A stretch of 34,597 nt of DNA from a virus, in the UHGV virus genome UHGV-0102868, one strand, 5' to 3'. A program made the position numbers and the translations under genes. Shown here in pieces: positions 4,448 to 20,907 of this stretch (position 1 is its first letter; the number at the start of each line of letters is the position of its first letter). Under the pieces are notes generated by a model. That model searched no databases, was not told where the DNA came from, and saw only the letters and a list, made by a program, of their open reading frames with translations.

Positions 4448-5026
4448 ATGAGAGACATTGATGTAAGAAAGGCTGTGCATGCCAAGATTCTGAGAGATCA
4501 TCATAAAGATCCTGACACCCTAATCATTGATGAGTTTACGATGAATCTAGGGGCTAGCAGAGCTGATATAGCAGTGATCAATGGGCTTATACATGGTTAT
4601 GAGTTGAAGAGCAAGAGTGATAACTTGCTCAGATTACCAGCGCAGGTGCAACATTACTCATCAGTGATGGATAAAGTAACTTTGGTTGTCTCTGATTGCC
4701 ATCTTTATGATGCTTTAAGCATAGTTCCATCATGGTGGGGGATAAAGCAAGTTACGCAAGGTGCACGGCAAGGTATCCATTTAAAAACAATTCGAACTAG
4801 CAAGTTGAATCCACAAGTGGACAAACTTTCCTTAACAATGCTTCTTTGGAAAGATGAATTGCTTTCCCTATTAAGTGATGTAGGGGAGCTACAGAATTTG
4901 AAAAATAAACCTAAACGCGTCTTATGGTCAAAACTCGCCAATAGTATGGATGTTGGCGAGCTTCGTGAAGCTGTTCGAGTTAAACTTAAAGCCCGTAAAG
5001 AGTGGCGAGTTGCTCAACAACCTTAG
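4448..5026 (+). CDS. uncharacterised protein, possible PD-(D/E)xK nuclease-fold (ORF-A)
   Basis: 192-aa ORF in visibly AT-rich DNA. Translation has D28/E29, D40 and E52-x-K54 (IIDEF ... RADIAVI ... YELKS), spaced like a restriction-endonuclease-type active site. An extended -10-like TGTTAAAAT lies upstream (4327-4335). Confidence 0.6.
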   Translation: MRDIDVRKAVHAKILRDHHKDPDTLIIDEFTMNLGASRADIAVINGLIHGYELKSKSDNLLRLPAQVQHYSSVMDKVTLVVSDCHLYDALSIVPSWWGIKQVTQGARQGIHLKTIRTSKLNPQVDKLSLTMLLWKDELLSLLSDVGELQNLKNKPKRVLWSKLANSMDVGELREAVRVKLKARKEWRVAQQP

Positions 5027-6083
5027 TTATGTGATGGTTTTGCCCAATCCTACGCCATACCTCTGGGCTACCAAATTTATAGTTACCAGAGGGATTGGCT
5101 TTGTAGGCTTGATACTCGTTTGCATAATATTCTATGTCTCTATCTCCCGCACAGAATGTAGGCCCTGAATATTCTCGATGAGCAAGAATATCCTCACTAT
5201 GTTTACCATATTGTTCATAACCAAAGCGATTAGCTACTCTTCCTCGAAATACCCAAAAGTCATTATCTCCAGAGTATCTGACGCTGGCAGATACGCTAGG
5301 GAATCGCGTCGAAAGCCTATTAAAGTCGGGGTGCTGTACTCCATAATCACTATAAATCACATTTCTGGCAAGTTCTTTTCTATTCATTAAACTCTGCCAT
5401 AAAATCCACTCGATTCGAGGTTGAGAATATAGACCAACAGAAATATCACTGAGATCTGTAGGAAATGAACCCCCAGAAAGAATCACTTTTCTGTATTCAT
5501 TGAGGTGCGCCAGATTGTTTATCAATCCCATTGCCAAAGTATATAGTTCGCCGGAATTAAGTTTATCCTCGGTTAACTCATCTCTTAAGTCAATAATTAT
5601 ATCAATATTTGATAAAGGAATTCCTAGATGATTAATGTAATGCGTTATTAATTGTGGGTTAACCAGATCTAACGTGGTTAATCTCAAGCATATTTCATTC
5701 TGCATTAATTCATCAATCGCTCTTTTATAGTTAGATGGGCGAGTTGGTGAACTGACAGGAATAACTCTTATCCCCATATCTCTAACTTGATTAACCGCAT
5801 TTATTATAGGGTAATGATCTTCAGGAGAAATAAAATGCTCTTCAATTAATAATCCATCAATATAAACACCTTGCATATCTGAGCAAGATTTTGAGACTTT
5901 CTTTCCGAACTCTATAAGAGTCTCGTTATAACTCTTTAAGGCAATACCTGAATCAGGGTCAATTGGCACTGGTTCAATTTCGAGTAATGGCAAAATTTTT
6001 GATTTCTTTTCAATGGATAGCTGCGATAAAGCTGATAACTCAGAACGTTTCGCTTTCAGAATAGGAATATATGAAATTGCCAT
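4986..6083 (-). CDS. uncharacterised 365-aa protein (ORF-B), convergent partner of ORF-A
   Basis: Long uninterrupted minus-strand ORF, the only convincing minus-strand gene in the window. AT-rich. Its 3' end overlaps the ORF-A 3' end by 41 bp. No motif I can name with confidence. Confidence 0.7.
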   Translation of the reverse strand: MAISYIPILKAKRSELSALSQLSIEKKSKILPLLEIEPVPIDPDSGIALKSYNETLIEFGKKVSKSCSDMQGVYIDGLLIEEHFISPEDHYPIINAVNQVRDMGIRVIPVSSPTRPSNYKRAIDELMQNEICLRLTTLDLVNPQLITHYINHLGIPLSNIDIIIDLRDELTEDKLNSGELYTLAMGLINNLAHLNEYRKVILSGGSFPTDLSDISVGLYSQPRIEWILWQSLMNRKELARNVIYSDYGVQHPDFNRLSTRFPSVSASVRYSGDNDFWVFRGRVANRFGYEQYGKHSEDILAHREYSGPTFCAGDRDIEYYANEYQAYKANPSGNYKFGSPEVWRRIGQNHHITKVVEQLATLYGL

Positions 6084-7025: not shown

Positions 7026-7379
7026 ATGGCACTCACTGAATTCGGTAAGGCCGTGAGAAAAGCGAGAATTGATACAGGTTATACACTTCTTACCATGGCA
7101 AAAGCATTGGGCACCACACCAGCTTTCTTGAGTGGGCTTGAAACTGGAGCAAAAAAGATTCCAGCAAAATGGGTTACGGCAATAAATGATTTACTTGCTG
7201 AGCAAGGGTACAAAATTGAAAACCTGGATTTGTTAGCCAATATTTCAAATGAGTCAATACCTGTTGAAGGTTTACCCTTGCAGCAACAGATGTTGGTTGC
7301 AGGATTTGCTAAATCAGAATTCACACATGAAGAATTGAAAAAGTTCGCTGAGCTTTTAGCGGAAATCAATAAGAAATAA
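7026..7379 (+). CDS. XRE-family helix-turn-helix transcriptional regulator
   Basis: N-terminal HTH-like segment (TGYTLLTMAKALGTTPAFLSGLETG); RBS GAGGA 7 nt upstream; the next gene starts 16 nt after its stop. Confidence 0.75.
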   Translation: MALTEFGKAVRKARIDTGYTLLTMAKALGTTPAFLSGLETGAKKIPAKWVTAINDLLAEQGYKIENLDLLANISNESIPVEGLPLQQQMLVAGFAKSEFTHEELKKFAELLAEINKK

Positions 7380-7395: not shown

Positions 7396-7878
7396 ATGTA
7401 TCAAATGCGAGGGACAAGAGTCCAGCCATTAACCGAAATTGACATCAAAAACAAAGCTATAAATGCCTGTTTTGCTTTGGGATTTACAAGCAAGTATAAA
7501 TACCGTAGGCGTCCGAAGAGATTTGATATTGCTTTAGAAAAGCTGTCAGAGTGGAATATTGTTTTGGAGCCTATTGATGAGGCTGATTGGCTGGGACTTA
7601 CTCTTGGCTTAACCATTGGACATTGTGAGCCAGAGACATTGACAATAAGAGTGCCAAACCATATTTATGAAATGGCTTGTGCAGGAGAACGTAGTGCTTT
7701 ATTTGTTGTTTTTCATGAGTTAGGTCATTTGCTTCTTCAGCATAAACCAGCACTGCATTTTTCAAATACCCCACCGGAGCAAAACGAAGACTCTGAGTGG
7801 CAGGCTGATTTATTTGCAGATGTGATGTTGGAAAAATTAGGATATGAAACAGCACAACTTTGCTTCGATTTTTATTAA
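7396..7878 (+). CDS. ImmA/IrrE-family Zn metallopeptidase (HEXXH)
   Basis: Translation contains FHELGHLLLQH (HEXXH) in a 160-aa protein directly downstream of an XRE HTH gene, the usual ImmR/ImmA-type arrangement. Confidence 0.75.
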   Translation: MYQMRGTRVQPLTEIDIKNKAINACFALGFTSKYKYRRRPKRFDIALEKLSEWNIVLEPIDEADWLGLTLGLTIGHCEPETLTIRVPNHIYEMACAGERSALFVVFHELGHLLLQHKPALHFSNTPPEQNEDSEWQADLFADVMLEKLGYETAQLCFDFY

Positions 7879-8000
7879 AAAGCCCTGCAATAGCAGGGCT
7901 TAGATTCGGAAAGCCTAGGAAACTTTCCTGTGTATGATGGAGATCCCCACCGCTACACTTAGAATTGACAGAAGTGAGTCTAGCGGTTCTCTCAATAAAT

Positions 8001-8028
8001 TGCAACCTGTATGGGGATACAGGTTGCA
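8001..8028 (+). repeat. perfect 12-bp inverted repeat with a 4-nt GGGG loop
   Basis: TGCAACCTGTAT-GGGG-ATACAGGTTGCA read directly; it sits just upstream of the RBS and start of the small Zn-ribbon ORF. Confidence 0.7.
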
Positions 8029-8044
8029 GGGAGATGCTGTTGTT

Positions 8045-8194
8045 ATGGCTATGAAAACTTGTAAGAAATGTGGGAAACCGTGTGAAATTATTTTTCGTTA
8101 CTCTGCCTGTATCAACGGAGTTATGCGGTATGCGAGAAAAGGGCATCCTTTTCCGATTCCTGTCTGCGATTGCTCTGAACTTGGTGTCGCATAA
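8045..8194 (+). CDS. small Cys-rich (zinc-ribbon-like) protein, 49 aa
   Basis: ATG 8045 with RBS GGGAGA (8030-8035); CKKCGKPC ... CDC motifs; followed by a terminator. The ORF-track start at 7934 would read through the inverted repeat. Confidence 0.4.
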   Translation: MAMKTCKKCGKPCEIIFRYSACINGVMRYARKGHPFPIPVCDCSELGVA

Positions 8195-8202
8195 TGATCT
8201 AA

Positions 8203-8226
8203 AACCCGCTTTGGCGGGTTTTTTAC
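8203..8226 (+). terminator. rho-independent terminator closing the accessory island
   Basis: CCCGC-tttg-GCGGG hairpin followed by TTTTTT. Confidence 0.55.
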
Positions 8227-8386
8227 TTTTACAGATCAAGTTTTAGCCGATTCCTCCATTAAACCGACCTTCGTTTGTTGATAAGCGGGTATGCCTGACT
8301 AGAATCGATTCACTTAAGTAGCGCGCAGGGAGAAGAGGGATGGACCCCGAGCAGGGGAGTGCTATTTATCTGGAAGGATTCTGTTG

Positions 8387-10528: not shown

Positions 10529-10803
10529 GCATTTGAAATAAGCCTTATTGTATTGCAGCACTGGCGTATTTTTATTACGTGGGAGCAGGTTGTTTCGAAA
10601 AAGTATTCTGTTCTCTGGCTATGATTTGAGGCCAGGTGTAGCCTCAGTGCTGATTTTTTTACGGCAGCAGAATGGTGCATTATCGGTGGAGATTTTGTAT
10701 TTCCTGGCAGGGCCGGTGATGTGCCATCCCGATGTTGTAAACATCGCTAAAAATGACATTGAGATTAATCATATACTAAGCAAAACCTGGAAATACATCC
10801 TTT

Positions 10804-10830
10804 ACCGCCTCCACCGGGCGGTTTTTTTTA
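10804..10830 (+). terminator. intrinsic terminator downstream of the tRNA pair
   Basis: ACCGCC-tccacc-GGGCGGT hairpin followed by a T8 run. Confidence 0.5.
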
Positions 10831-11215
10831 TTCTGAACCCTAAAAAAAGAAACACGGACACTGATAATGCCCGTGTGGCAATGCCATGTAAGTTAGCGAT
10901 GAATATGGCGCAAAAAAAAGCGCGGCCGTCGGATTAACGCCGCGGGACAAAGTCCATGAAGACTCATAAGTATTGGCCCCCTTCTGGGGACATGTTCATA
11001 CTACTAAGCTTCAGAAGTGGTTTAAATCATCAAATTAACCTTAATTTTCGATAAGTCTTATTTCATTTCTTTGCGCCACATCTGGCGCGCATCAAATAAC
11101 GCCACGCAAAGGGCATCTGCGGATGCCGGTGCTTTTGACGGGGTGTTTTTTACGGGCCGCTGGTGGCCATTTTTTGTTTCCATTACACAGCGCCCGCATC
11201 TGCGAGGTGGGGGTT

Positions 11216-11431: not shown

Positions 11432-11928
11432 TGCCTCCATCATTACGAAAAGCCGTTGCTGCTGCTATTGGTGGCGGAGCAATTGCTATAGCATCAGTGT
11501 TAATCACTGGCCCAAGTGGTAACGATGGTCTGGAAGGTGTCAGCTACATACCATACAAAGATATTGTTGGTGTATGGACTGTATGTCACGGGCATACAGG
11601 AAAAGACATCATGCTCGGTAAAACGTATACCGAAGCAGAGTGCAAAGCCCTCCTGAATAAAGACCTTGCCACTGTCGCCAGACAAATTAACCCGTATATC
11701 GAAGTCGATATACCGGAAACAACGCGCGGCGCTCTTTACTCATTCGTTTACAACGTGGGTGCTGGCAATTTCAGAACATCGACGCTTCTTCGCAAAATAA
11801 ACCAGGGCGATATCAAAGGCGCATGTGATCAGCTACGTCGCTGGACATATGCTGGCGGTAAGCAATGGAAAGGTCTCATGACTCGTCGTGAGATTGAGCG
11901 TGAAATCTGTTTGTGGGGTCAGCAATGA
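11431..11928 (+). CDS. R: SAR endolysin (lysozyme with N-terminal signal-anchor-release domain)
   Basis: Gly/Ala-rich N-terminal hydrophobic segment ([20 protein letters not shown]) followed by a lysozyme-like domain; TAATG overlap with the holin stop. Confidence 0.85.
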
Positions 11929-12389
11929 ACAGAGTAACCGCGATTATCTCCGCTCTGGTTATCTGCATCATCGTCTGCCTGTCATGGGCTGTTAATCATT
12001 ACCGTGATAACGCCATTACCTACAAAGCCCAGCGCGACAAAAATGCCAGAGAACTGAAGCTGGCGAACTCGACAATTACTGACATGCAGATGCGTCAGCG
12101 TGATGTTGCTGCGCTCGATGCAAAATACACGAAGGAGTTAGCTGATGCGAAAGCTGAAAATGATGCTCTGCGTGATGATGTTGCCGCTGGTCGTCGTCGG
12201 TTGCACATCAAAGCAGTCTGTCAGTCAGTGCGTGAAGCCACCACCGCCTCCGGCGTGGATAATGCAGCCTCCCCCCGACTGGCAGACACCGCTGAACGGG
12301 ATTATTTCACCCTCCGGGAACGACTGGTAATGATGCAGGCCCAACTTGAAGGTGCTCAGCAATACATAACCGAACAGTGTTTAAAGTAA
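11925..12389 (+). CDS. Rz: i-spanin Rz
   Basis: N-terminal transmembrane segment then coiled-coil; ATGA overlap with the endolysin stop; position in the lysis cassette. Confidence 0.8.
12145..12330 (+). CDS. Rz1: o-spanin Rz1 (lipoprotein nested in the +1 frame of Rz)
   Basis: Signal peptide with lipobox VVGC, then a proline-rich stretch [16 protein letters not shown]; wholly embedded in Rz. Confidence 0.8.
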
Positions 12390-12526
12390 AATCTTAACTA
12401 CAATATGATTCATTTTGATGATTGTTTCATAAGGAACAGTGAAGTAAGATCTAAGAGGAGTTAAATTTTATACAGTATAATCATAATATTGCAGCAAGGT
12501 GGTTATAATTGAAAGAATATTTAGAT

Positions 12527-13984
12527 ATGAATACATCTCATGTAAGAGTTGTTACTCATATGTGTGGGTTCCTGGTTTGGCTCTATAGTCTTTCAATGTT
12601 GCCACCAATGGTTGTAGCATTGTTTTATAAAGAAAAAAGCCTGTTCGTTTTCTTTATAACTTTCGTTATATTTTTTTGCATTGGTGGCGGAGCGTGGTAT
12701 ACAACTAAGAAATCTGGCATTCAATTACGTACCCGTGATGGGTTTATTATAATTGTAATGTTTTGGATTTTGTTTTCTGTTATTAGTGCATTCCCTTTAT
12801 GGATTGACTCAGAACTTAATTTAACGTTCATTGATGCTCTGTTTGAAGGGGTTTCTGGAATAACAACAACAGGAGCAACTGTAATTGATGATGTTAGTTC
12901 ATTACCTCGGGCATATTTGTACTATCGGTCACAGTTAAATTTTATTGGTGGTTTAGGAGTTATTGTTCTGGCGGTTGCTGTATTGCCATTATTGGGTATT
13001 GGTGGTGCAAAGCTTTATCAGTCAGAAATGCCGGGGCCATTTAAGGATGACAAACTCACTCCCCGCCTGGCCGATACGTCACGGACACTGTGGATAACTT
13101 ATTCTTTATTAGGTATTGCTTGTATTGTCTGTTATAGACTTGCAGGAATGCCTTTGTTTGATGCTATTTGTCACGGGATTTCCACAGTTTCGCTTGGTGG
13201 TTTCTCAACTCATAGCGAGAGTATCGGATATTTTAATAACTATTTGGTTGAGCTGGTGGCTGGTTCTTTTTCCCTGCTATCGGCTTTCAACTTCACTCTT
13301 TGGTATATTGTTATTAGCAGGAAAACGATAAAACCTTTAATCAGAGATATTGAACTTCGTTTCTTTCTGTTAATAGCCTTAGGGGTGATCATTGTTACCT
13401 CTTTCCAGGTCTGGCATATAGGTATGTATGACTTGCATGGAAGTTTTATTCATTCGTTTTTTCTTGCCAGCTCCATGCTCACTGATAATGGTTTAGCTAC
13501 GCAGGATTATGCAAACTGGCCCACGCACACGATAGTGTTTTTGCTGTCGTCAAGTTTCTTTGGGGGATGTATAGGTTCAACTTGTGGTGGAATTAAGTCA
13601 CTTCGATTTCTTATACTTTTCAAACAAAGCAAACACGAGATAAATCAGCTTTCTCATCCCAGAGCGTTGTTGAGTGTAAATGTAGGAGGGAAGATAGTTA
13701 CAGATCGTGTAATGAGGTCTGTATGGAGTTTCTTTTTTCTTTATACTCTCTTCACGGTGTTTTTTATACTGGTGTTAAATGGTATGGGATATGATTTTCT
13801 TACATCATTTGCAACAGTGGCTGCATGTATTAATAATATGGGATTAGGTTTTGGGGCTACTGCATCGTCATTCGGAGTGCTTAATGACATTGCAAAATAT
13901 TTAATGTGCATAGCTATGATTCTTGGTCGCCTTGAAATTTATCCTGTTATTATATTGTTTTCAGGTTTTTTTTGGCGCTCCTAA
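12527..13984 (+). CDS. trkG: TrkH/TrkG-family potassium uptake transporter (moron)
   Basis: Polytopic membrane protein with repeated selectivity-filter-like glycine motifs (SGITTTGATV, IGGLGVIVL, STCGGIKSL), as in TrkH/TrkG; AT-rich. Alternative TTG start at 12509 behind SD AAGGTGG. Confidence 0.85.
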   Translation: MNTSHVRVVTHMCGFLVWLYSLSMLPPMVVALFYKEKSLFVFFITFVIFFCIGGGAWYTTKKSGIQLRTRDGFIIIVMFWILFSVISAFPLWIDSELNLTFIDALFEGVSGITTTGATVIDDVSSLPRAYLYYRSQLNFIGGLGVIVLAVAVLPLLGIGGAKLYQSEMPGPFKDDKLTPRLADTSRTLWITYSLLGIACIVCYRLAGMPLFDAICHGISTVSLGGFSTHSESIGYFNNYLVELVAGSFSLLSAFNFTLWYIVISRKTIKPLIRDIELRFFLLIALGVIIVTSFQVWHIGMYDLHGSFIHSFFLASSMLTDNGLATQDYANWPTHTIVFLLSSSFFGGCIGSTCGGIKSLRFLILFKQSKHEINQLSHPRALLSVNVGGKIVTDRVMRSVWSFFFLYTLFTVFFILVLNGMGYDFLTSFATVAACINNMGLGFGATASSFGVLNDIAKYLMCIAMILGRLEIYPVIILFSGFFWRS

Positions 13985-14121
13985 TATATGGCTGATTTAT
14001 AATTGTGAGTTTAATATTATATTGACTCACTCATTGATCCAATACCTAACTTTACCAGCAACACCTCCGCCCCCAGTAGCACTGGCTGCTGGGGTGCGTT
14101 TTATTCATAAAGCAAGGCTGT

Positions 14122-14910
14122 ATGAGCGAGAAATTAAAGATAGTCTATCGCCCATTACAAGAATTGTCACCGTATGCGCACAACGCCAGGACGCACAGTA
14201 CTGAGCAGGTGGCACAACTGGTAGAAAGTATTAAGCAATTCGGCTGGACTAATCCGGTGCTGATTGACGAAAAGGGCGAAATTATTGCGGGTCACGGTCG
14301 TGTTATGGCGGCTGAAATGCTCAAAATGGATTCTGTTCCGGTCATTGTTCTGTCTGGCCTGACGGATGATCAGAAAAAGGCGTACCGCCTGGCAGATAAT
14401 CGCCTACCGATGAATGCTGGCTGGGATGAAGATCTGTTGCGGATGGAGCTGTCGGACCTAATCAATGCTGATTTTGATGTCTCCCTGACAGGCTTCGGCC
14501 CGACAGAAATTGATGAACTGTTGACGGATGTTTTGCCCGGTACAGGAAATAAGAAGGAGCCGTATACGACGAAAATTGATACGCCTGTTTATGAGCCGTC
14601 GGGCGGTAAACCGGATATCAGTGAACTGTACGACGATACGAAAACTCAGGAGCTGATCAGCCGGATACGTTCGGCGTCCCTTGATCCTGATATTGAGAAA
14701 TTCCTCCTGTGTGCGGCAGAACGTCACACGGTGTTTAATTTCAGCAGAATTGCGGACTATTACGCTCATGCCCCCGCTGAAATTCAGTGCCTTTTCGAGG
14801 AGTCGGCGCTGGTGATCATTGATTATCAGCAGGCTATTGAAAATGGATTTGTCCGAATGACGCAGCGCATGGTGGCGATCATGCATAGCGGGGAGGAGGA
14901 ATATGCGTGA
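14122..14910 (+). CDS. ParB-like nuclease domain protein
   Basis: N-terminal ParB/sulfiredoxin-type signature (IIAGHGRVMAA, DNRLPMNAGWD); 120-aa C-terminal extension of unknown function; its stop overlaps the next start by 8 nt. Confidence 0.75.
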   Translation: MSEKLKIVYRPLQELSPYAHNARTHSTEQVAQLVESIKQFGWTNPVLIDEKGEIIAGHGRVMAAEMLKMDSVPVIVLSGLTDDQKKAYRLADNRLPMNAGWDEDLLRMELSDLINADFDVSLTGFGPTEIDELLTDVLPGTGNKKEPYTTKIDTPVYEPSGGKPDISELYDDTKTQELISRIRSASLDPDIEKFLLCAAERHTVFNFSRIADYYAHAPAEIQCLFEESALVIIDYQQAIENGFVRMTQRMVAIMHSGEEEYA

Positions 14911-15835
14911 TGATTTTTGCGCCTTTATTCTGACTCACGGGCGACCGGACAAAGTTCTGACTTACCGGACGTTGCGTCGTGCTGGCTATACCGGGAAAAT
15001 TTTTATCGTTGTTGATGATGAAGATAAGACACGGCATCAGTACATGGCTGAATTTGGTGAACAGGTGCTGGTATTTTCCAAAGCAGATATTGCCAGTCGT
15101 TTTGACGAAGCCGATAATTTTGGTGACCGCCGCTCAATTTTTTACGCCCGTAATGCCTGTTTCGACCTGGCAAAACTGGTCGGGTGTAAATACTTCATTC
15201 AGCTCGATGATGATTATCACGAGTTCCAGTTTCGGGTGGATCGCAACTATGACCAGGCCTATTTCCCGATAAGGAAACTGGATGCGATCCTTTCTGAAAT
15301 GCTGGCGTATTACGAATCAATACCCGCGCTTTCCATCGCTATGTCGCAGGGCGGGGATTTTCTTGGTGACAATGGCGGCCATGCTTCGTGGGTGAAACGC
15401 AAGGCAATGAACAGCTTTATCTGTTCGGTTGATCGACCGTTCTCATTCATGGGGCGCATTAACGAGGATGTGAATACGTACACGAATCTCGGTCGCCGTG
15501 GTGAATTGTTTATGACGATCGGTGCTGTCCAGTTAGGGCAGAAACAGACGCAGAAAAACAGCGGCGGAATGACCGAGCTGTATCTGGATTCCGGGACCTA
15601 CGTTAAAAGTTTTTATTCCGTCATGTATGCGCCGTCGTGCGTAAAAATCTCACTGATGGGCGCCAGCCATAAACGCATTCACCATCAGGTCACCTGGAAC
15701 AACGCTGCAGTAAAAATCCTTCACGAAAAATACAGGAAGAAGACACCCTGCATATTAATGGGGGTGACAAATGATTCCGTATTCGAAAGTCGAGTCTCTG
15801 GCAGCGTGCCGGATGACTGCACAACAAATCGCTGA
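14903..15835 (+). CDS. GT-A-fold glycosyltransferase-like protein (DxD motif)
   Basis: Strong RBS GGAGGAGGA; spacing of beta1 (CAFILTHGRPD), beta2 (KIFIVVDDEDKT) and DxD (YFIQLDDDYH) matches GT-A nucleotide-sugar transferases by eye; translationally coupled to the ParB-like gene. Confidence 0.6.
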   Translation: MRDDFCAFILTHGRPDKVLTYRTLRRAGYTGKIFIVVDDEDKTRHQYMAEFGEQVLVFSKADIASRFDEADNFGDRRSIFYARNACFDLAKLVGCKYFIQLDDDYHEFQFRVDRNYDQAYFPIRKLDAILSEMLAYYESIPALSIAMSQGGDFLGDNGGHASWVKRKAMNSFICSVDRPFSFMGRINEDVNTYTNLGRRGELFMTIGAVQLGQKQTQKNSGGMTELYLDSGTYVKSFYSVMYAPSCVKISLMGASHKRIHHQVTWNNAAVKILHEKYRKKTPCILMGVTNDSVFESRVSGSVPDDCTTNR

Positions 15836-16022
15836 CGTTCTGGATGTTGATCTGAACCGACTGAAAGAAAATCGGGAAGCAATGACAAATTTTTACGCGT
15901 CCATCCGTAAGGGCAGAGCGAAAGGTGAAGCCGAGCTACGGGCGGCATTGTTTAAGCTTGCCAGAAAAGGGGATGCCTTTGCCCTGCGCGAACTACTCAG
16001 GGTGGATAAAAATCAGGACTAA
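15771..16022 (+). CDS. small HTH-like DNA-binding protein (possible terminase small-subunit accessory domain)
   Basis: RBS GGGGTGA; HTH-like segment MTAQQIADVLDVDL; overlaps the 3' end of the GT-like gene in another frame. Start uncertain (15771 or 15813). Confidence 0.4.
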   Translation: MIPYSKVESLAACRMTAQQIADVLDVDLNRLKENREAMTNFYASIRKGRAKGEAELRAALFKLARKGDAFALRELLRVDKNQD

Positions 16023-16025
16023 CTG

Positions 16026-17120
16026 ATGAGCAGACCGGACTGGGGGGCGTTGCAGCAGGAGTATATTGCTGAATACACCCGCTCCGGTATATCTCCGGTG
16101 GCATGGTGTGAAGCAAGGGGACTGAATTACGCAACAGCCCGTCGTTACATCAAAAAACCTCCGAAAAATGCGCAGACAGAAATGCGCAAAACTGCGCAAA
16201 AAAGTGCGCAGAAAAAATCTGCGCAGACTGCACAAAAGCGGAACGGAAAATCTCAGGAAAAAAAGCCAGTATCCGATGCGTACCTGAATGAGGGCGATGC
16301 GGAAGAAATTTCGTTCTGTCCCGATGAATTCGGCATTTCTGACCAGCAGGCTAAGTTTGCGATGCTTGTTGCTCAGGGTAAAAAGCCGACAGAGGCGTAC
16401 CGACTAGCCGGTTATGAGGGGCAAGGTGCGACAGCTAACAGCAACGCCAGTCGTATGCTTAGAAATGCCAGGGTTTTTCGCGCTATCAGCTACTTCCGCA
16501 ATCAGTACCAGAAACGCTATACCGCAGACCTGGATTTACTAGTGAGTCAGTTGATGGCTATTGTCCTGGCCGACCCCAATCAGCTTGCACAATTTCGCCG
16601 TGTTAACTGCCGTTATTGCTGGGGCGAGAATCATCTCTACCAGTGGCGCGATATAGCAGAATTCGACAAGGCAGCGGCGCAGGCTTCCAGAGATGGCAAA
16701 CCCGAACCGGAATATGGAGGCCTCGGCTTTGTTGATAACGCCATACCCAATCCGGACTGCCCGAAGTGCTGCGGTGAGGGAACGGGACAGCTTTATATGG
16801 CTGATACCACTCTGCTTGATGGGGATGCGCGGCAATTATATGCAGGGGCAAAATTCGGAAAATTCGGCGTTGAGATCCTGCTGGAGGATAAGGCTGCCGC
16901 CCGGCGTGAATTGTTGCGTTTGTTTTCTGCTGGCGGGGCTTTATGTGCAGATAAACGGCTACAGGAACTGGAAATTGAACGGCGCAGAATGGAAAACCAG
17001 AAGCTGCGCAAAGAGATCGAAACGGTGGAAGATAATGAACATCCCCAGCCTGTGGCGATCAATATTAATGTGGTTGATGCCAGAGTAAGGAGTGATGAAG
17101 ATGATCTCTCCGACGCTTAA
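16026..17120 (+). CDS. terminase small subunit
   Basis: Segment FGISDQQAKFAMLVAQGKKPTEAYRLAGYEG...SRMLRN resembles the HTH of small terminase subunits; directly upstream of the large subunit. Confidence 0.7.
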   Translation: MSRPDWGALQQEYIAEYTRSGISPVAWCEARGLNYATARRYIKKPPKNAQTEMRKTAQKSAQKKSAQTAQKRNGKSQEKKPVSDAYLNEGDAEEISFCPDEFGISDQQAKFAMLVAQGKKPTEAYRLAGYEGQGATANSNASRMLRNARVFRAISYFRNQYQKRYTADLDLLVSQLMAIVLADPNQLAQFRRVNCRYCWGENHLYQWRDIAEFDKAAAQASRDGKPEPEYGGLGFVDNAIPNPDCPKCCGEGTGQLYMADTTLLDGDARQLYAGAKFGKFGVEILLEDKAAARRELLRLFSAGGALCADKRLQELEIERRRMENQKLRKEIETVEDNEHPQPVAININVVDARVRSDEDDLSDA

Positions 17121-18402
17121 TGTGCCTCAGGCGCGATTTCTTTCAATGCCCCATAAATTTAAAGCCTATATTGCTGGTTTTGGCTCGGGCAAAACATGGG
17201 TTGGGTGTGGCGGCATATGCAAGGGGATTTGGGAGCATCCAGGTATAAATCAGGGATATTTTGCGCCAACGTATCCCCAAATTCGCGATATTTTTTACCC
17301 TACAGTGGAAGAAGTTGCTGCTGACTGGGGATTGAACGTAAAAATTAATGAGGGAAATAAAGAGGTTCACTTTTATTACGGACGCCAGTATCGGGGAACC
17401 ACTATCTGCAGATCGATGGAGAAGCCACAAACGATCGTCGGTTTCAAAATTGGTAATGCGTTGGTGGATGAACTGGACATTTTGCCGAAGGAAAAAGCCA
17501 GAACGGCGTGGCGCAAGATAATTGCACGTATGCGTTATAAGATTGATGGACTTCGCAACGGTATTGACGTTACAACCACGCCGGAAGGATTCAAATTTGT
17601 CTACGAGCAGTTTGTTAAAGCCGTGCGTGAAAAAACAGAGCTGGCCTCACTGTATGGTCTGGTGCAGGCATCTACTTTCGATAATGAAAAGAACCTGCCA
17701 GCAGATTACATTCCTTCGCTTCTTGAATCATACCCTCCAGAGCTGATTAAAGCCTATCTGCGAGGACAGTTTACTAACCTGACAAGTGGTACTGTTTACC
17801 ATCAGTTTGACCGGAAACTGAATAATTGCGAAGAAGTGGAGCAGCCAGGGGAGCCGATTTATATTGGGATGGATTTTAACGTTGGAAAGATGGCGGGAAT
17901 CGTCCATGTGCTGCGTTTGGGGCTTCCATGTGCGGTAACTGAAATCATCAATGCCTACGATACGCCGGATATGATCCGCATCATTAAAGAACGCTTCTGG
18001 CTGTATGATGGGAATGATTACCGGAAAGTGAGGGAAATTTATATTTATCCAGATGCTTCCGGGGATTCCAGAAAATCAAGTAACGCAAGTACGACGGATA
18101 TAGCCCAGCTTAAGCAGGCTGGTTTTAACGTTGTGGTGAACAGCTCGAACCCGCCAGTAAAAGATCGCGTTAACTCAATGAATGCAATGTTCTGCAATGC
18201 CAATGGTGAGCGTCGCTATAAAGTTAATGTGAAGCGTTGCCCGTTATATGCCGAATCTCTGGAGCAACAGGTCTGGGATGAGAAGGGGGAGCCTGATAAA
18301 AAATCTGGCAATGATCACCCGAATGATGCCGGAGGTTATTTCATCGTTAAGCAATTCCCTATTGTCAAACCGACCGGAAGAGTCACATCACTTCGGATTT
18401 AA
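17101..18402 (+). CDS. terminase large subunit
   Basis: Walker A GFGSGKT near the N-terminus; about 430 aa; SD AAGGAG 8 nt before ATG 17101. Alternative starts at 17092 and 17095. Confidence 0.85.
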   Translation: MISPTLNVPQARFLSMPHKFKAYIAGFGSGKTWVGCGGICKGIWEHPGINQGYFAPTYPQIRDIFYPTVEEVAADWGLNVKINEGNKEVHFYYGRQYRGTTICRSMEKPQTIVGFKIGNALVDELDILPKEKARTAWRKIIARMRYKIDGLRNGIDVTTTPEGFKFVYEQFVKAVREKTELASLYGLVQASTFDNEKNLPADYIPSLLESYPPELIKAYLRGQFTNLTSGTVYHQFDRKLNNCEEVEQPGEPIYIGMDFNVGKMAGIVHVLRLGLPCAVTEIINAYDTPDMIRIIKERFWLYDGNDYRKVREIYIYPDASGDSRKSSNASTTDIAQLKQAGFNVVVNSSNPPVKDRVNSMNAMFCNANGERRYKVNVKRCPLYAESLEQQVWDEKGEPDKKSGNDHPNDAGGYFIVKQFPIVKPTGRVTSLRI

Positions 18403-18404
18403 TT

Positions 18405-19811
18405 ATGGCTGATATATCAACACCCAACCTCGACTATAACGATATGCTGGAGGCGTGGGATATTAACGACGCACTGATGGGCGGTACGCTTGAAATGCGC
18501 AGGCAGGGGGAAAATTATCTCCCAAAATGGCCTAACGAAGATGAAGACGCTTATAAAAAACGCCTGTCTGTGGCTACGCTACTTCCTGTGTATGAAGAAA
18601 GCATCAAGCAAAATATTGGGCGCATATTTGCAGAGCCGACAGTATTGAGTGAGGAAACGCCGGCAAAAATCAGGGAATATACAGAAAATATCGACATGGA
18701 GGGGAGCCGACTGGATGTGTGGGCGCAGCAATTTTTCAGCCTCGCATTTCAGTATGGTGTGGCACATGCGCTGGTGGACTATCCACGAACGGATATGAAA
18801 GAGATTCGTACAAAAGCCGATGAAAACGCGACCGGTGGTCGTCCGTACGTTACGATGCTGAATCCACGCCAGGTTATTGGATGGAAATCGAAAGTTGAAA
18901 AAGGGAAAGTTGTTCTCACTGATTTGCGTATAAAAGAGGTCATCATTATTGATGGTGATGATTTCGGGCAGAAGAAGGTGGAGCAGATCCGCCATATTAT
19001 GCCCCGTCGAGTTGAAATTTATCGACGTAGCGAAGGCACTAATGGCGAATCTGTCTGGACGCTTCATGAGTCATGGAATACCAGCCGTGATGATATTCCT
19101 CTGGTAACACTGTACACGAAGAAAACAGGATTTATGCGTGGTACACCGCCATTGCTTAATCTTGGCTTGCTGAATATCAAGCACTGGCAAAGCCAGAGCG
19201 AGCAGGACAATATTCTTCATGTTACCCGCGTTCCATTGCTGGTGGCCTACGGGCTGGACAGGAATGAAGAACTGACGGTTGGTGCATCCACCGCTACGAT
19301 TTTTGAGGACAGAACAAAAAATGGCCTCGAATATGTTGAACATAGTGGCGCAGCGATAGAATCTGGCGAAACATCACTTGAGAAGCTGGAAAATCAGATG
19401 CGTCATGCCGGCGCTAAACTTCTGCGTGCTGAAAATACATCCACCAAATCTGTTGATCAGACTAATGAAGAGCGAATGCAGGAAAACTCGCCGCTTTATA
19501 CAATGGCGAACTCCCTCGAAGATGCCCTCGATAATATTCTCCAGATAATGGCGGAATGGATCGGAGAGAGTTGCGGTGGCAATGTGGATGTGCGCACTGA
19601 ACTGGATGTATCTGCCCAGGTGTTTGACTCATCCTCCGCGCTGGCTGTTCAGTCATTGCGTCAGGGCGGTGATATACGTCAGATTGATGCGGTTCGGGTG
19701 TTGCAGGCGTTGAAATTTATCGATCAGGATTCCCGTCCAGAGGAAGTGATCGATGAATTAAAAAATCAGAGTGTAATGCTGATGGAAATCAATGATGCAA
19801 ACCGTGAATGA
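18405..19811 (+). CDS. portal protein
   Basis: 468-aa ORF immediately after the large terminase; size and position typical of portals. Assignment is positional. Confidence 0.7.
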   Translation: MADISTPNLDYNDMLEAWDINDALMGGTLEMRRQGENYLPKWPNEDEDAYKKRLSVATLLPVYEESIKQNIGRIFAEPTVLSEETPAKIREYTENIDMEGSRLDVWAQQFFSLAFQYGVAHALVDYPRTDMKEIRTKADENATGGRPYVTMLNPRQVIGWKSKVEKGKVVLTDLRIKEVIIIDGDDFGQKKVEQIRHIMPRRVEIYRRSEGTNGESVWTLHESWNTSRDDIPLVTLYTKKTGFMRGTPPLLNLGLLNIKHWQSQSEQDNILHVTRVPLLVAYGLDRNEELTVGASTATIFEDRTKNGLEYVEHSGAAIESGETSLEKLENQMRHAGAKLLRAENTSTKSVDQTNEERMQENSPLYTMANSLEDALDNILQIMAEWIGESCGGNVDVRTELDVSAQVFDSSSALAVQSLRQGGDIRQIDAVRVLQALKFIDQDSRPEEVIDELKNQSVMLMEINDANRE

Positions 19812-20907
19812 ACGGCTGCGTGATGAATCAATTGCTCATGCAGTCTGGATATCCCGCTATAGCACTGGCGTGGCTGCCAGAATGGTGAAAATACTGAATG
19901 ACAGCGATGCGGAACTTACTGCTCGCCTGCTGATAGCACTGGACAGCCTCGATCCAGGTAATTTTACCGTTAAGCGCCTGGAGTCACTTCTGGCGAGCGT
20001 CAGAAAGGTTAACCGCACTGCTATTAACAGCATGTTTACCAGTCTCTCCGGAGAGCTGAACGAGCTGGCAATTTATGAGGCTGGTTATCAGTTAAGTCTG
20101 TTTGATTCTATGCTACCTGATTTTGTTGCTGATGTTCACCCTCTGGTTGGTATCTCTCCTGATGCACTTTATGCCGCTGCAATGGCGCGACCATTCCAGG
20201 GACGACTGCTCAGTGAGTGGGCCTCAGATCTTGAGGCGGATCGGCTCAGACGCATAACAAATACAGTGCGTCAGGGTTTTTTGCTGGGGGATACCAATGA
20301 GCAGATCGCAAGAAAAATTCGGGGACATGTCAGTAAGGGATTTCAGGATGGTGCATTGCAGATGAGCCGGGCTAATGCGGCCAGCATTGCAAAAACAGCG
20401 GTTGGACATCTTGCTGCTACTGCCCGTGAGAGTTTTGCCAGCGCGAATAATGATTTGATTAAGGGTAAGCAATGGTTATCAACGCTTGATAATCGTACTA
20501 CGCCACAATGTCGAATCAGGGATCGCCTCAAATATACGCTGAATAATAAACCTGTAGGTCACAGCGTGCCTTATTTGCAGGGGCCGGGAAAAATTCATTT
20601 CTGCTGCCGCTCAACGGAAACGTTCATTCTGAAATCAGCGAAGGAACTGGGTATTGATGTTCGCGATATTTCCCCGGCTGAGCGGGCCAGCATGGATGGC
20701 GTGGTGGCCGGAGATACAACCTACAGGGAATGGTTTTTGCGTCAGCCTTACACCAGACAAAAACAGATTGTGGGGGAAACCCGAGCAAAGCTGATTCGGG
20801 ATGGTGGTATGTCGCCAGATGAATTTTACACCGATAAAGGCGAATGGCTGACGCTGAAGCAGCTCCGTGAGCGTGATGCACAGGTATTCAGAAAAGCAGG
20901 GATTTAA
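19792..20907 (+). CDS. head morphogenesis protein (Mu gpF / SPP1 gp7-like, putative)
   Basis: About 370 aa directly after the portal and followed by a strong terminator; assigned by position and size. Confidence 0.65.
   Translation: MMQTVNERLRDESIAHAVWISRYSTGVAARMVKILNDSDAELTARLLIALDSLDPGNFTVKRLESLLASVRKVNRTAINSMFTSLSGELNELAIYEAGYQLSLFDSMLPDFVADVHPLVGISPDALYAAAMARPFQGRLLSEWASDLEADRLRRITNTVRQGFLLGDTNEQIARKIRGHVSKGFQDGALQMSRANAASIAKTAVGHLAATARESFASANNDLIKGKQWLSTLDNRTTPQCRIRDRLKYTLNNKPVGHSVPYLQGPGKIHFCCRSTETFILKSAKELGIDVRDISPAERASMDGVVAGDTTYREWFLRQPYTRQKQIVGETRAKLIRDGGMSPDEFYTDKGEWLTLKQLRERDAQVFRKAGI

What the first reader, a model, noticed from the sequence alone, without database searches (positions are those of the whole stretch)
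14122..15835. ParB-like nuclease-domain protein translationally coupled to a GT-A-like glycosyltransferase just upstream of the terminase: possible DNA-modification (anti-restriction) module
In many phages the gene before the small terminase is a ParB-like domain protein fused to or followed by a DNA methyltransferase. Here the partner is a 310-aa protein whose N-terminal half has the order and spacing of a GT-A nucleotide-sugar transferase (beta1 CAFILTHGRPD, beta2 KIFIVVDDEDKT, DxD motif YFIQLDDDYH) and no visible transmembrane segment, so it does not look like an O-antigen-modifying enzyme. The two genes overlap by 8 nt (ATGCGTGA) behind a strong SD. A soluble glycosyltransferase paired with a DNA-binding ParB-like domain next to the packaging genes suggests sugar modification of phage DNA or of a packaged protein. 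I do not know this as a described system.
Basis: inference. Interest (0 to 1): 0.7.

Follow-up and report, generated by a model that had tools for sequence, protein, structure and literature searches.

The report
ParB-partnered phage glycosyltransferase cassette
Just before the DNA-packaging genes of an intact Rac-type E. coli prophage sits a two-gene cassette, widely conserved in phages: YnaK (a ParB-like protein) plus a sugar transferase from a family known to glycosylate DNA. It probably decorates phage DNA, but no enzyme that would create the usual sugar attachment point is present, so its real target is unknown.

Summary
ORF 14122-14910 is YnaK, a ParB/Srx-fold protein. ORF 14903-15835 is a soluble GT-A glycosyltransferase. 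They overlap by ATGCGTGA behind a GGAGGAGG Shine-Dalgarno sequence, directly upstream of terS/terL.

The glycosyltransferase (GT) is not an orphan. It belongs to Pfam PF20691 (TAGT, "TET-associated glycosyltransferase"; E 6e-36). That family contains the T2/T6 beta-glucosyl-HMC-alpha-glucosyltransferase and the base-J glucosyltransferase.

The window is an intact Rac-like prophage. K-12 Rac keeps only an 87-aa ynaK stump. The full pair occurs in 889 of 5,426 complete E. coli genomes.

YnaK proved to be modular. Its ParB N-terminal domain (NTD) is shared with hundreds of phage DNA-methyltransferase fusions. Its C-terminal domain (CTD), which has no Pfam family, occurs only next to this GT (28 of 28 phage records). 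The CTD tracks the GT in divergence, exists alone beside the GT in Vibrio jumbo phages, and is fused to a TAGT in one natural protein.

The cassette precedes at least four terminase families, in phages of Proteobacteria, Firmicutes, Actinobacteria, Bacteroidota and haloarchaea.

No TET/JBP, DNA methyltransferase or hydroxymethylase accompanies it. DNA glycosylation late in infection is the best reading (about 0.5), but the acceptor is unknown and untested. I rate it a new variant of a known kind.

The parts
14071..14094 (+). Terminator-like hairpin (CCCCAGTAGCACTGGCTGCTGGGG followed by a T-run) that closes the trkG insert just upstream of ynaK. The cassette would be reached by antiterminated late transcription (inferred).
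   Evidence: 10-pair stem, 7 GC pairs; sequence.
14122..14910 (+). ynaK, full length (262 aa). A ParB/Srx-fold protein made of two modules joined by an acidic linker.
14122..14526 (+). YnaK N-terminal domain (NTD, aa 1-135). ParB/Srx nucleotide-binding fold with the GHGR P-motif (aa 57-60) and ADN (aa 91-93), and no helix-turn-helix. This module is shared with phage DNA-methyltransferase fusions.
14557..14856 (+). YnaK C-terminal domain (CTD, aa 146-245). It has the invariant motif PYTxKIDTPVYEPS followed by a helical domain, and belongs to no Pfam family. It is a partner module specific to this GT.
   Evidence: No Pfam hit. Found in 28 phage records, all with the GT immediately downstream. 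A stand-alone 139-aa version sits beside the GT in Vibrio phage pv27 (53% identity, E 2e-40). Its identity tracks that of the GT. 1,186 representative clusters. A natural TAGT-ParB-CTD fusion exists, P0376.
14892..14910 (+). Translational-coupling junction: Shine-Dalgarno GGAGGAGG (14892-14899), GT start ATG at 14903, and YnaK stop TGA at 14908-14910 (overlap ATGCGTGA).
   Evidence: Read directly from the sequence. Overlapping or abutting junctions occur in all 85 related loci.
14903..15835 (+). TAGT-family (PF20691) GT-A glycosyltransferase, 310 aa. The catalytic core is aa 1-215 (R14, DDD 102-104, NEDVNTY 187-193). A conserved basic C-terminal region spans aa 216-290 (pI 9.7, HH 260-261). 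The last 20 aa are specific to the E. coli lineage and overlap the next gene.
15771..16022 (+). Context: an 83-aa ORF resembling part of a small terminase subunit. It overlaps the 3' end of the GT gene.
   Evidence: phrog_309 2.5e-22. Annotated as a shorter CDS in phage ON470614.
16026..18402 (+). Context: terS (16026-17120, Terminase_2) and terL (17092-18402, Terminase_6N/6C). The cassette always sits immediately upstream of the packaging genes.
   Evidence: Other terminase families occupy the same position in other phages.

Best explanation
YnaK and the TAGT-family glycosyltransferase form a two-subunit, late-expressed DNA-directed glycosylation machine.

Proposed mechanism:
- YnaK's ParB-type N-terminal domain acts as a nucleotide-gated DNA-engaging or activating module. 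This is the role the same domain is inferred to play when fused to phage DNA methyltransferases. ParB-like proteins have been shown to play such a role for the DpdA transglycosylase and for the phage thymine dioxygenase 5mYOX176.
- YnaK's C-terminal domain is the adaptor that holds the GT.
- The GT transfers a sugar from a nucleotide-sugar onto replicated phage DNA around the time of packaging. The modification would travel in the virion and blunt host nucleases in the next cell.

Shown here: fold and family of both proteins; the modular build of YnaK; the exclusive CTD-GT linkage, its parallel divergence and a natural fusion; the conserved position before unrelated terminases.

Inferred: physical complex, DNA as the substrate, timing, and anti-restriction benefit.

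Unknown: the acceptor atom and the sugar.
For: 1. The GT is a clear member of PF20691, with the family's R...DDD...ED motif set (motif as defined in bioRxiv 10.1101/2023.12.21.572611). Characterised members act on DNA: the T2/T6 second glucosyltransferase (PMC13216743, PMC13390438), phage 5hmC glycosyltransferases and the base-J enzyme JGT (bioRxiv 10.1101/2023.12.21.572611).
2. The YnaK NTD is the subfamily fused to DNA methyltransferases (fusions surveyed in PMC12704722).
3. ParB-like proteins are proven helpers of DNA-modifying enzymes: DpdB for DpdA (PMC10164549), and ParB176, needed by 5mYOX176 only on double-stranded DNA (PMC13229309).
4. The CTD occurs only with this GT (28 of 28 records). 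CTD identity tracks GT identity (r 0.97 across 79 loci, much of it shared phylogeny). In loci where the GT is below 70% identical, the means are GT 59%, CTD 55% and NTD 37%.
5. The CTD stands alone beside the GT in Vibrio jumbo phages.
6. P0376 is a TAGT-ParB-CTD fusion seen on three independent contigs. It is followed by a second TAGT and then terL.
7. The cassette is directly upstream of terminases of at least four families (Terminase_6N, Terminase_3, GpA, TerL_ATPase), in phages of five phyla including the archaeal virus HHTV-2. The link is therefore to the packaging stage, not to one terminase protein.
8. The conserved C-terminal region of the GT is strongly basic (pI 9.7), as expected for nucleic-acid contact.
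Against: 1. No TET/JBP dioxygenase, C5-methyltransferase or thymidylate-synthase-like hydroxymethylase is present in the window, in the complete phage ON470614, within 8 kb in metagenomic relatives, or anywhere in the 50-ORF phage c5. All characterised DNA glycosyltransferases need a hydroxyl acceptor.
2. [quoted passage not shown]
3. YnaK is acidic throughout (pI 4.65) and has no helix-turn-helix.
4. A family member, GREB1, is reported to glycosylate a protein (PMC7968844).
5. The cassette is dispensable. It is lost in K-12 Rac, reduced to a remnant in phage Ld25A, and the GT match is in two pieces in phiLdb, Ld17 and LL-Ku.
6. No complex was modelled, and the C-terminal third of each model has low confidence.
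Confidence: 0.5

Rival explanations
1. Protein glycosylation. The GT glycosylates a phage or host protein (a virion or packaging protein, or YnaK itself at the invariant Tyr157 or Thr154 of the PYTxKIDTPVYEPS motif, in the manner of glycogenin). YnaK would be the substrate or an adaptor rather than a DNA-targeting subunit.
For: GREB1, a TAGT-family member, is reported to O-GlcNAcylate ER-alpha (PMC7968844). No DNA hydroxyl acceptor pathway is present. An invariant, probably disordered peptide in YnaK (pLDDT below 50 at aa 151-161) would suit an acceptor or docking loop. Generic GT-A matches include glycogenin and protein glycosyltransferases.
Against: The partner carries a ParB domain of the subfamily otherwise fused to DNA methyltransferases. 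The downstream terminases and head genes belong to unrelated families, so no common structural-protein substrate is evident. In Vibrio jumbo phages the CTD-GT pair sits among primase, helicase and exonuclease genes, not structural genes.
Confidence: 0.2
2. Small-molecule or nucleotide glycosylation. The pair modifies a nucleotide or metabolite, for example one bound by the ParB/Srx nucleotide pocket or a host immune signalling nucleotide. ParB/Srx-fold proteins can be phosphotransfer enzymes.
Against: This does not explain the shared NTD with DNA methyltransferases or the fixed position before the terminase. No TAGT member is known to act on a free small molecule. It is purely speculative.
Confidence: 0.1
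3. Classical TAGT role. The GT glycosylates 5hmC, 5hmU or another pre-modified base whose synthesis is encoded elsewhere, either by an unrecognised, highly divergent oxygenase in the phage or by the host.
For: This is the family's default function (PF20691). O'Toole et al. note that thousands of 5mYOX-like sequences escape the Pfam TET/JBP model (PMC13229309). A few window ORFs have no annotation (7598-8239 minus strand, 10548-10937).
Against: E. coli makes no hydroxymethyl-pyrimidines in DNA (established knowledge). The unannotated ORFs are short and not conserved alongside the cassette. Phage c5 and other 30-40 kb carriers have no candidate. The cassette moves as a two-gene unit without a third conserved gene.
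Confidence: 0.07
4. Packaging accessory. YnaK is a ParB-like nuclease or DNA-handling factor that assists terminase (pac/cos recognition or cutting), and the GT has a structural or unrelated role.
For: The position is constant next to terS/terL. 'ParB-like nuclease' annotations are common. HNH endonucleases occupy similar positions in cos phages.
Against: The association spans at least four unrelated terminase families, both cos and headful types. The catalytic motifs of the GT are invariant, which argues for an active enzyme. The cassette has been lost or has decayed in some records: a remnant in Ld25A and a two-piece GT match in phiLdb, Ld17 and LL-Ku. The ParB NTD is the replaceable part, not the conserved core.
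Confidence: 0.05

Closest known systems
T2/T6 beta-glucosyl-HMC-alpha-glucosyltransferase (founding phage member of Pfam PF20691, TAGT)
   Same: Same Pfam family and GT-A fold. PHROG 842, which our protein matches at 1e-103, carries this name. Direct similarity to the homologues annotated with this name in T4-like Aeromonas phages is detectable at 23-26% identity. T2 and T6 themselves were not among the tblastn hits.
   Different: The T-even enzyme adds a second glucose to glucosyl-5hmC, which is made by a pre-replicative hmC pathway plus alpha-GT (PMC13216743). Here there is no hmC pathway, no alpha- or beta-GT, and an obligatory ParB-CTD partner that T-even phages lack.
Phage 5mYOX (TET/JBP) hypermodification clusters, including the ParB-dependent thymine dioxygenase pair ParB176/5mYOX176
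   Same: A ParB-like protein lacking a DNA-binding helix-turn-helix, encoded beside a DNA-modifying enzyme, often with GT-A glycosyltransferases and terminase genes nearby (PMC13229309, PMC8256090, bioRxiv 10.1101/2023.12.21.572611).
   Different: No dioxygenase is present. The ParB protein is paired directly with the GT through a dedicated C-terminal domain.
ParB N-terminal domain fused to N6/N4 DNA methyltransferases in phages and prophages
   Same: The ParB NTD is the same subfamily (phrog_498 4e-51; PADLOC MTase_II 1e-38; about 500 phage records). PMC12704722 reports that these fusions are enriched in prophages.
   Different: The effector is a separate glycosyltransferase recruited non-covalently (inferred) through the CTD, not a fused methyltransferase.
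DpdA/DpdB 7-deazaguanine DNA modification system
   Same: A ParB-fold NTPase (DpdB) is required for a DNA base-modifying enzyme to act on DNA (PMC10164549).
   Different: Different effector chemistry (transglycosylase base exchange). It is a bacterial restriction-modification-like system. The DpdB C-terminal domain is SspE-like and is not the YnaK CTD.
Kinetoplastid base-J glucosyltransferase (JGT) and vertebrate GREB1
   Same: Same GT-A family according to the Pfam name and the RefSeq label 'GREB1-related protein'. JGT glucosylates 5hmU in DNA.
   Different: JGT depends on JBP-made 5hmU. GREB1 is reported to act on a protein (PMC7968844). Neither has a ParB partner.

Membership tests
Pfam PF20691 TAGT (TET-associated glycosyltransferase) | Profile HMM score above the curated gathering threshold | tested here: met
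   124.8 bits against a cutoff of 27.5, E 5.8e-36, aa 8-222 covering profile positions 4-205 of 205.
Pfam PF20691 TAGT (TET-associated glycosyltransferase) | GT-A fold with the R...DDD...ED(Y/F) active-site motif set | tested here: met
Pfam PF20691 TAGT (TET-associated glycosyltransferase) | Genomic association with a source of hydroxymethyl-pyrimidine (TET/JBP/5mYOX, or a ThyS-like hydroxymethylase plus a first GT) | tested here: not met
   None in the window, the full phage record, relatives or phage c5.
Pfam PF20691 TAGT (TET-associated glycosyltransferase) | Sugar transfer to a DNA base or a base-linked sugar | not testable with these tools
   Needs biochemistry or nucleoside mass spectrometry.
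ParB/Srx superfamily (PF02195 ParB_N) | HMM above threshold and ParB/Srx fold with a GxxR nucleotide-binding motif | tested here: met
Canonical chromosome/plasmid partition ParB (ParABS) | Central helix-turn-helix parS-binding domain, ParA partner, parS sites, and the TIGR00180 equivalog score | tested here: not met
   TIGR00180 scores 36.8 bits against a cutoff of 58.45. No helix-turn-helix is detected in Pfam or in the model. No ParA gene lies nearby. No convincing palindromic repeat set was found around the cassette.
ParB-dependent 5mYOX (thymine dioxygenase) systems | A ParB-like activator encoded with a cognate 5mYOX/TET-JBP dioxygenase | tested here: not met
   A ParB-like protein is present but no dioxygenase.
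ParB-NTD-DNA methyltransferase fusions | ParB NTD of this subfamily covalently joined to an N6/N4 methyltransferase domain | tested here: not met
   NTD homology is strong, but YnaK has no methyltransferase domain. Residues 146-245 form a distinct, family-less domain.
T-even second-step DNA glucosyltransferase system | Co-occurrence with alpha-GT or beta-GT and the dCMP hydroxymethylase pathway | tested here: not met
   Absent from this temperate phage of about 40-50 kb.

The most novel reading that the evidence does not exclude
The YnaK-TAGT pair glycosylates ordinary, otherwise unmodified DNA. The target would be a canonical base nitrogen or oxygen, or a DNA end, with no prior hydroxymethylation. 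The ParB-type module would expose or present the target. This would be a new chemistry of DNA modification, carried by about one in six sequenced E. coli strains and by phages of bacteria and archaea.
Probability: 0.2. Interest if true: 0.9.

Novelty: new variant of a known kind. Interest (0 to 1): 0.6.

Why it matters
Sugar modification of phage DNA is a classic counter-defence, but it is known only where a hydroxymethyl- or hydroxy-pyrimidine is made first.

This cassette belongs to the DNA-glycosyltransferase family and has a dedicated ParB-type partner, yet it travels without any such pathway. It occurs in small temperate and virulent phages across five phyla. The full pair is also in 889 of 5,426 complete E. 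coli genomes.

Two recent papers explicitly leave 'solitary' TAGTs, and GT contigs without 5mYOX or ThyS, unexplained. The modular anatomy found here (a swappable ParB head, a GT-specific adaptor domain, and a natural GT-ParB-CTD fusion) gives a concrete, testable two-protein system in an E. coli prophage that can be induced and engineered.

If the target is DNA, it reveals either a new acceptor chemistry or a hidden precursor route, and generalises ParB-fold proteins as adaptors for DNA-modifying enzymes. If the target is a protein, it redefines what this family does in phages.

Tried and rejected
- **Hidden dioxygenase, methyltransferase or hydroxymethylase.** I ran Pfam and PHROG scans on all sizeable window ORFs and read the annotation of the full phage, phage c5 and metagenomic relatives. 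None was found.
- **M.EcoGII as a ParB-methyltransferase precedent.** I had recalled that it carries a ParB domain. The paper (PMC5778455) reports no extra domains, so I dropped this.
- **Defence-system membership.** PADLOC hit only the ParB head shared with the MTase_II model, and nothing for the GT.
- **parS-like repeats around the cassette.** There is no convincing set. The only striking repeat cluster lies inside terS.
- **Vibrio jumbo phage pv27 as a source of a hydroxymethyl pathway.** I read only the first 50 kb. It has a thymidylate synthase next to DHFR, which suggests an ordinary thymidylate synthase, so this is inconclusive.
- **Literature.** Searches for ynaK, HHTV-2 modification and ParB plus DNA glycosylation found no functional data. 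Iyer et al. 2013, which defined TAGT and may already depict ParB-TAGT neighbourhoods, is not held.
- **AFDB fold search.** The library was unavailable.
- **Context of the fusion protein in viral contigs.** Nothing was found there. It was found through the assembly index instead.
Full report
**Observation**

The two ORFs are real and arranged as described. ORF 14122-14910 (262 aa) and ORF 14903-15835 (310 aa) lie on the + strand. The second starts at an ATG inside ATGCGTGA, which contains the stop codon of the first. A tandem Shine-Dalgarno sequence, GGAGGAGG, sits at 14892-14899. Downstream come an 83-aa terS-like ORF, terS (Terminase_2) and terL (Terminase_6N/6C). Upstream are the lysis genes, then a trkG insert that ends in a terminator-like hairpin at 14071-14094. 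Neither protein has a transmembrane-like segment.

**Where the window comes from**

The window is an intact Rac-type lambdoid prophage of E. coli. Induced phages such as vB_EcoS-666R9 are 98% identical across the cassette and show the full gene map. RefSeq names the first gene ynaK ('ParB/Srx family N-terminal domain-containing protein'). The newest annotations call the second 'GREB1-related protein'.

In K-12 MG1655 the order is trkG, ynaK (87 aa), ydaY. The laboratory Rac has therefore lost everything from mid-ynaK through the GT, terminase and head genes. The 1,751-bp cassette matches 1,597 of 5,426 complete E. coli genomes, and 889 of them over at least 80% of its length.

**The glycosyltransferase**

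- It matches Pfam PF20691 (TAGT, TET-associated glycosyltransferase) at 5.8e-36, and phrog_842 ('beta-glucosyl-HMC-alpha-glucosyltransferase') at 1e-103.
- An AlphaFold2 model built on 22 homologues is confident for residues 1-215 and poor beyond residue 218.
- R14, DDD 102-104, NEDVNTY 187-193 and HH 260-261 are invariant. This matches the R...DDD...ED(Y/F) motif set described for phage DNA GT-A enzymes and JGT (bioRxiv 10.1101/2023.12.21.572611).
- The conserved region 216-290 is strongly basic, pI 9.7.
- The last 20 residues are peculiar to the E. coli lineage and overlap the next gene.

**YnaK is modular**

After an acidic linker comes an invariant peptide, PYTxKIDTPVYEPS, and a helical domain (aa 146-245). 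This region has no Pfam family and no structural match.

**The CTD is the GT's private partner**

- Searched alone, the CTD is found in just 28 phage records. All 28 are records that carry the GT, with the CTD immediately upstream.
- In 191-kb Vibrio phages the CTD is a stand-alone 139-aa protein (53% identical, E 2e-40). It sits directly before the GT among primase, exonuclease and helicase genes, with no ParB head.
- Across 79 loci, CTD identity tracks GT identity (r 0.97; much of this reflects shared phylogeny). Where the GT has diverged to about 59%, the CTD is at 55% but the ParB head is at only 37%. The head is the replaceable part.
- The CTD family has 1,186 clusters at 50% identity. 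Most members are 240-310 aa with the CTD at the C-terminus, and some are stand-alone.
- One member, P0376 (534 aa), is a single polypeptide made of a distant TAGT, a ParB head and the CTD. It was found identically on three independent contigs. It is followed by a second TAGT of 292 aa, then terL and portal.

Parallel divergence, exclusive co-occurrence and this fusion together argue for a physical complex.

**Conservation of the cassette**

- A YnaK-like ORF lies directly upstream of the GT, overlapping or abutting its start, in 85 of 85 loci with GT identity 56-99%.
- The same order, ParB then GT then terminase, holds in Lactobacillus phages phi jlb1 and c5 (ORF1 and ORF2 right after cos), Nocardia phage NTR1 and Porphyromonas phages (GT only 26% identical). 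In the haloarchaeal virus HHTV-2 the pair is followed by several small genes before terL.
- The terminase behind it belongs to at least four families: Terminase_6N, Terminase_3, lambda GpA and HK97-type TerL_ATPase. The link is therefore to the packaging stage, not to a particular terminase.
- The cassette is accessory. It is lost in K-12 Rac, reduced to a remnant in Ld25A, and the GT match is in two pieces in phiLdb, Ld17 and LL-Ku.

**What is missing**

Characterised DNA glycosyltransferases of this family act on hydroxyl groups: 5hmC, 5hmU, or a sugar already attached (PMC13216743, PMC13390438, bioRxiv 10.1101/2023.12.21.572611). I found no TET/JBP dioxygenase, C5-methyltransferase or thymidylate-synthase-like enzyme in any of these places:

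- the window;
- the rest of the phage;
- within 8 kb in metagenomic relatives;
- the whole 31.8-kb genome of phage c5.

The literature has noticed the gap without resolving it. Solitary TAGTs occur in 288 of 753 GT-bearing phage genomes (PMC13216743). About 65% of GT contigs lack 5mYOX or ThyS and were set aside as less likely to be DNA-related (bioRxiv 10.1101/2023.12.21.572611).

**Most likely mechanism (confidence about 0.5)**

I propose a late-expressed, two-subunit enzyme. The YnaK CTD holds the GT. The ParB-type head engages or opens DNA, possibly gated by a nucleotide. The precedents are:

- DpdB, required by the DNA transglycosylase DpdA (PMC10164549);
- ParB176, required by the thymine dioxygenase 5mYOX176 only on double-stranded DNA (PMC13229309);
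- ParB-methyltransferase fusions (PMC12704722);
- the older suggestion, attributed to Aravind and co-workers, that ParB proteins direct modification machinery during packaging (cited in PMC8256090).

The GT would then sugar-modify phage DNA before or during packaging, as a counter-defence. The anatomy is shown here. The complex, the DNA substrate and the benefit are inferred. The acceptor and the sugar are unknown.

**Rivals**

- Protein glycosylation, including of YnaK's own invariant Tyr/Thr peptide (0.2; GREB1 is the precedent).
- Nucleotide or small-molecule glycosylation (0.1).
- The classical role on a pre-modified base made by an unrecognised enzyme (0.07).
- A packaging-accessory role (0.05).

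**Novelty**

The proteins are not new kinds. The GT is a TAGT and the partner is a ParB/Srx protein, and ParB/GT/terminase co-occurrence has been reported. I could not find the following in the accessible literature:

- recognition of a self-contained ParB-CTD plus TAGT cassette that lacks any precursor pathway;
- the GT-specific adaptor domain and its stand-alone and fused forms;
- the cassette's prevalence in E. coli.

Iyer et al. 2013, which defined TAGT, could not be read and may already show ParB-TAGT neighbourhoods. I therefore rate this a new variant of a known kind, with interest 0.6. The most novel reading not excluded is glycosylation of canonical DNA (probability about 0.2).

Noticed in passing
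window 16169-16227 (inside terS, 16026-17120): Six of the eight TGCGCARA sites in the whole window cluster within 59 bp, spaced 10-15 bp apart. One is on the minus strand and overlaps a plus-strand site. They lie inside the small-terminase gene and code for a K/A/Q-rich stretch. This looks like a candidate pac or TerS-binding site.
   Followed up: partly
window 12509-13984 (+), hairpin 14071-14094: A complete trkG (TrkH-family K+ transporter, Pfam 5.9e-144) is inserted between the Rz/Rz1 lysis genes and ynaK, closed by a terminator-like hairpin. It is the Rac trkG insert in its intact-prophage context.
   Followed up: partly
window 4986-6083 (-), with 7026-7379 (+) and 7396-7878 (+): A minus-strand 365-aa 'Beta protein' (PF14350, 2.4e-52; phrog_9159, function unknown) lies in the early region. 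Nearby are an HTH_3/HTH_31 protein and a Peptidase_M78 (ImmA/IrrE-like) protein. These may be an accessory, defence or regulatory island.
   Followed up: no
window 15771-16022 (+): An 83-aa ORF overlaps the last 65 nt of the GT gene. It resembles an internal part of a small terminase subunit (phrog_309, 2.5e-22), so the packaging recognition function may be split between two proteins. The E. coli-specific 20-aa tail of the GT is probably a by-product of this overlap.
   Followed up: partly
window 11913-12389 (+) and 12145-12330 (+): A Rz-type spanin gene with an embedded out-of-frame 61-aa lipoprotein ORF ([20 protein letters not shown]...), the classic Rz/Rz1 nested pair. K-12 retains these as rzpR (a pseudogene) and rzoR.
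   Followed up: partly
window 19792-20907 (+): A head-morphogenesis protein with a Phage_Mu_F domain. The nearly identical gene in phage ON470614 is annotated as 'NAD+--asparagine ADP-ribosyltransferase'. That annotation was not checked.
   Followed up: no
loci L008-L033 compared with the window: Many E. coli prophages carry a 97-99% identical ynaK-GT cassette, but the terL downstream was not detected as a homologue of the window's terL by phmmer (E 1e-5). In the one locus tested, L008, it is only weakly Terminase_6N-like. The recombination breakpoint therefore appears to lie right after the cassette.
   Followed up: partly
L069:7255-9474: The large terminase downstream of the cassette in one viral contig contains an intein (Intein_splicing domain inside a Terminase_3 protein).
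   Followed up: no
JGI sample 3300072015 contig (no DNA held); L095, L096: A phage with two TAGT enzymes in a row. The first is fused to ParB-CTD (P0376), and a Dam-like methyltransferase lies two genes upstream. This suggests stepwise addition of two sugars.
   Followed up: partly
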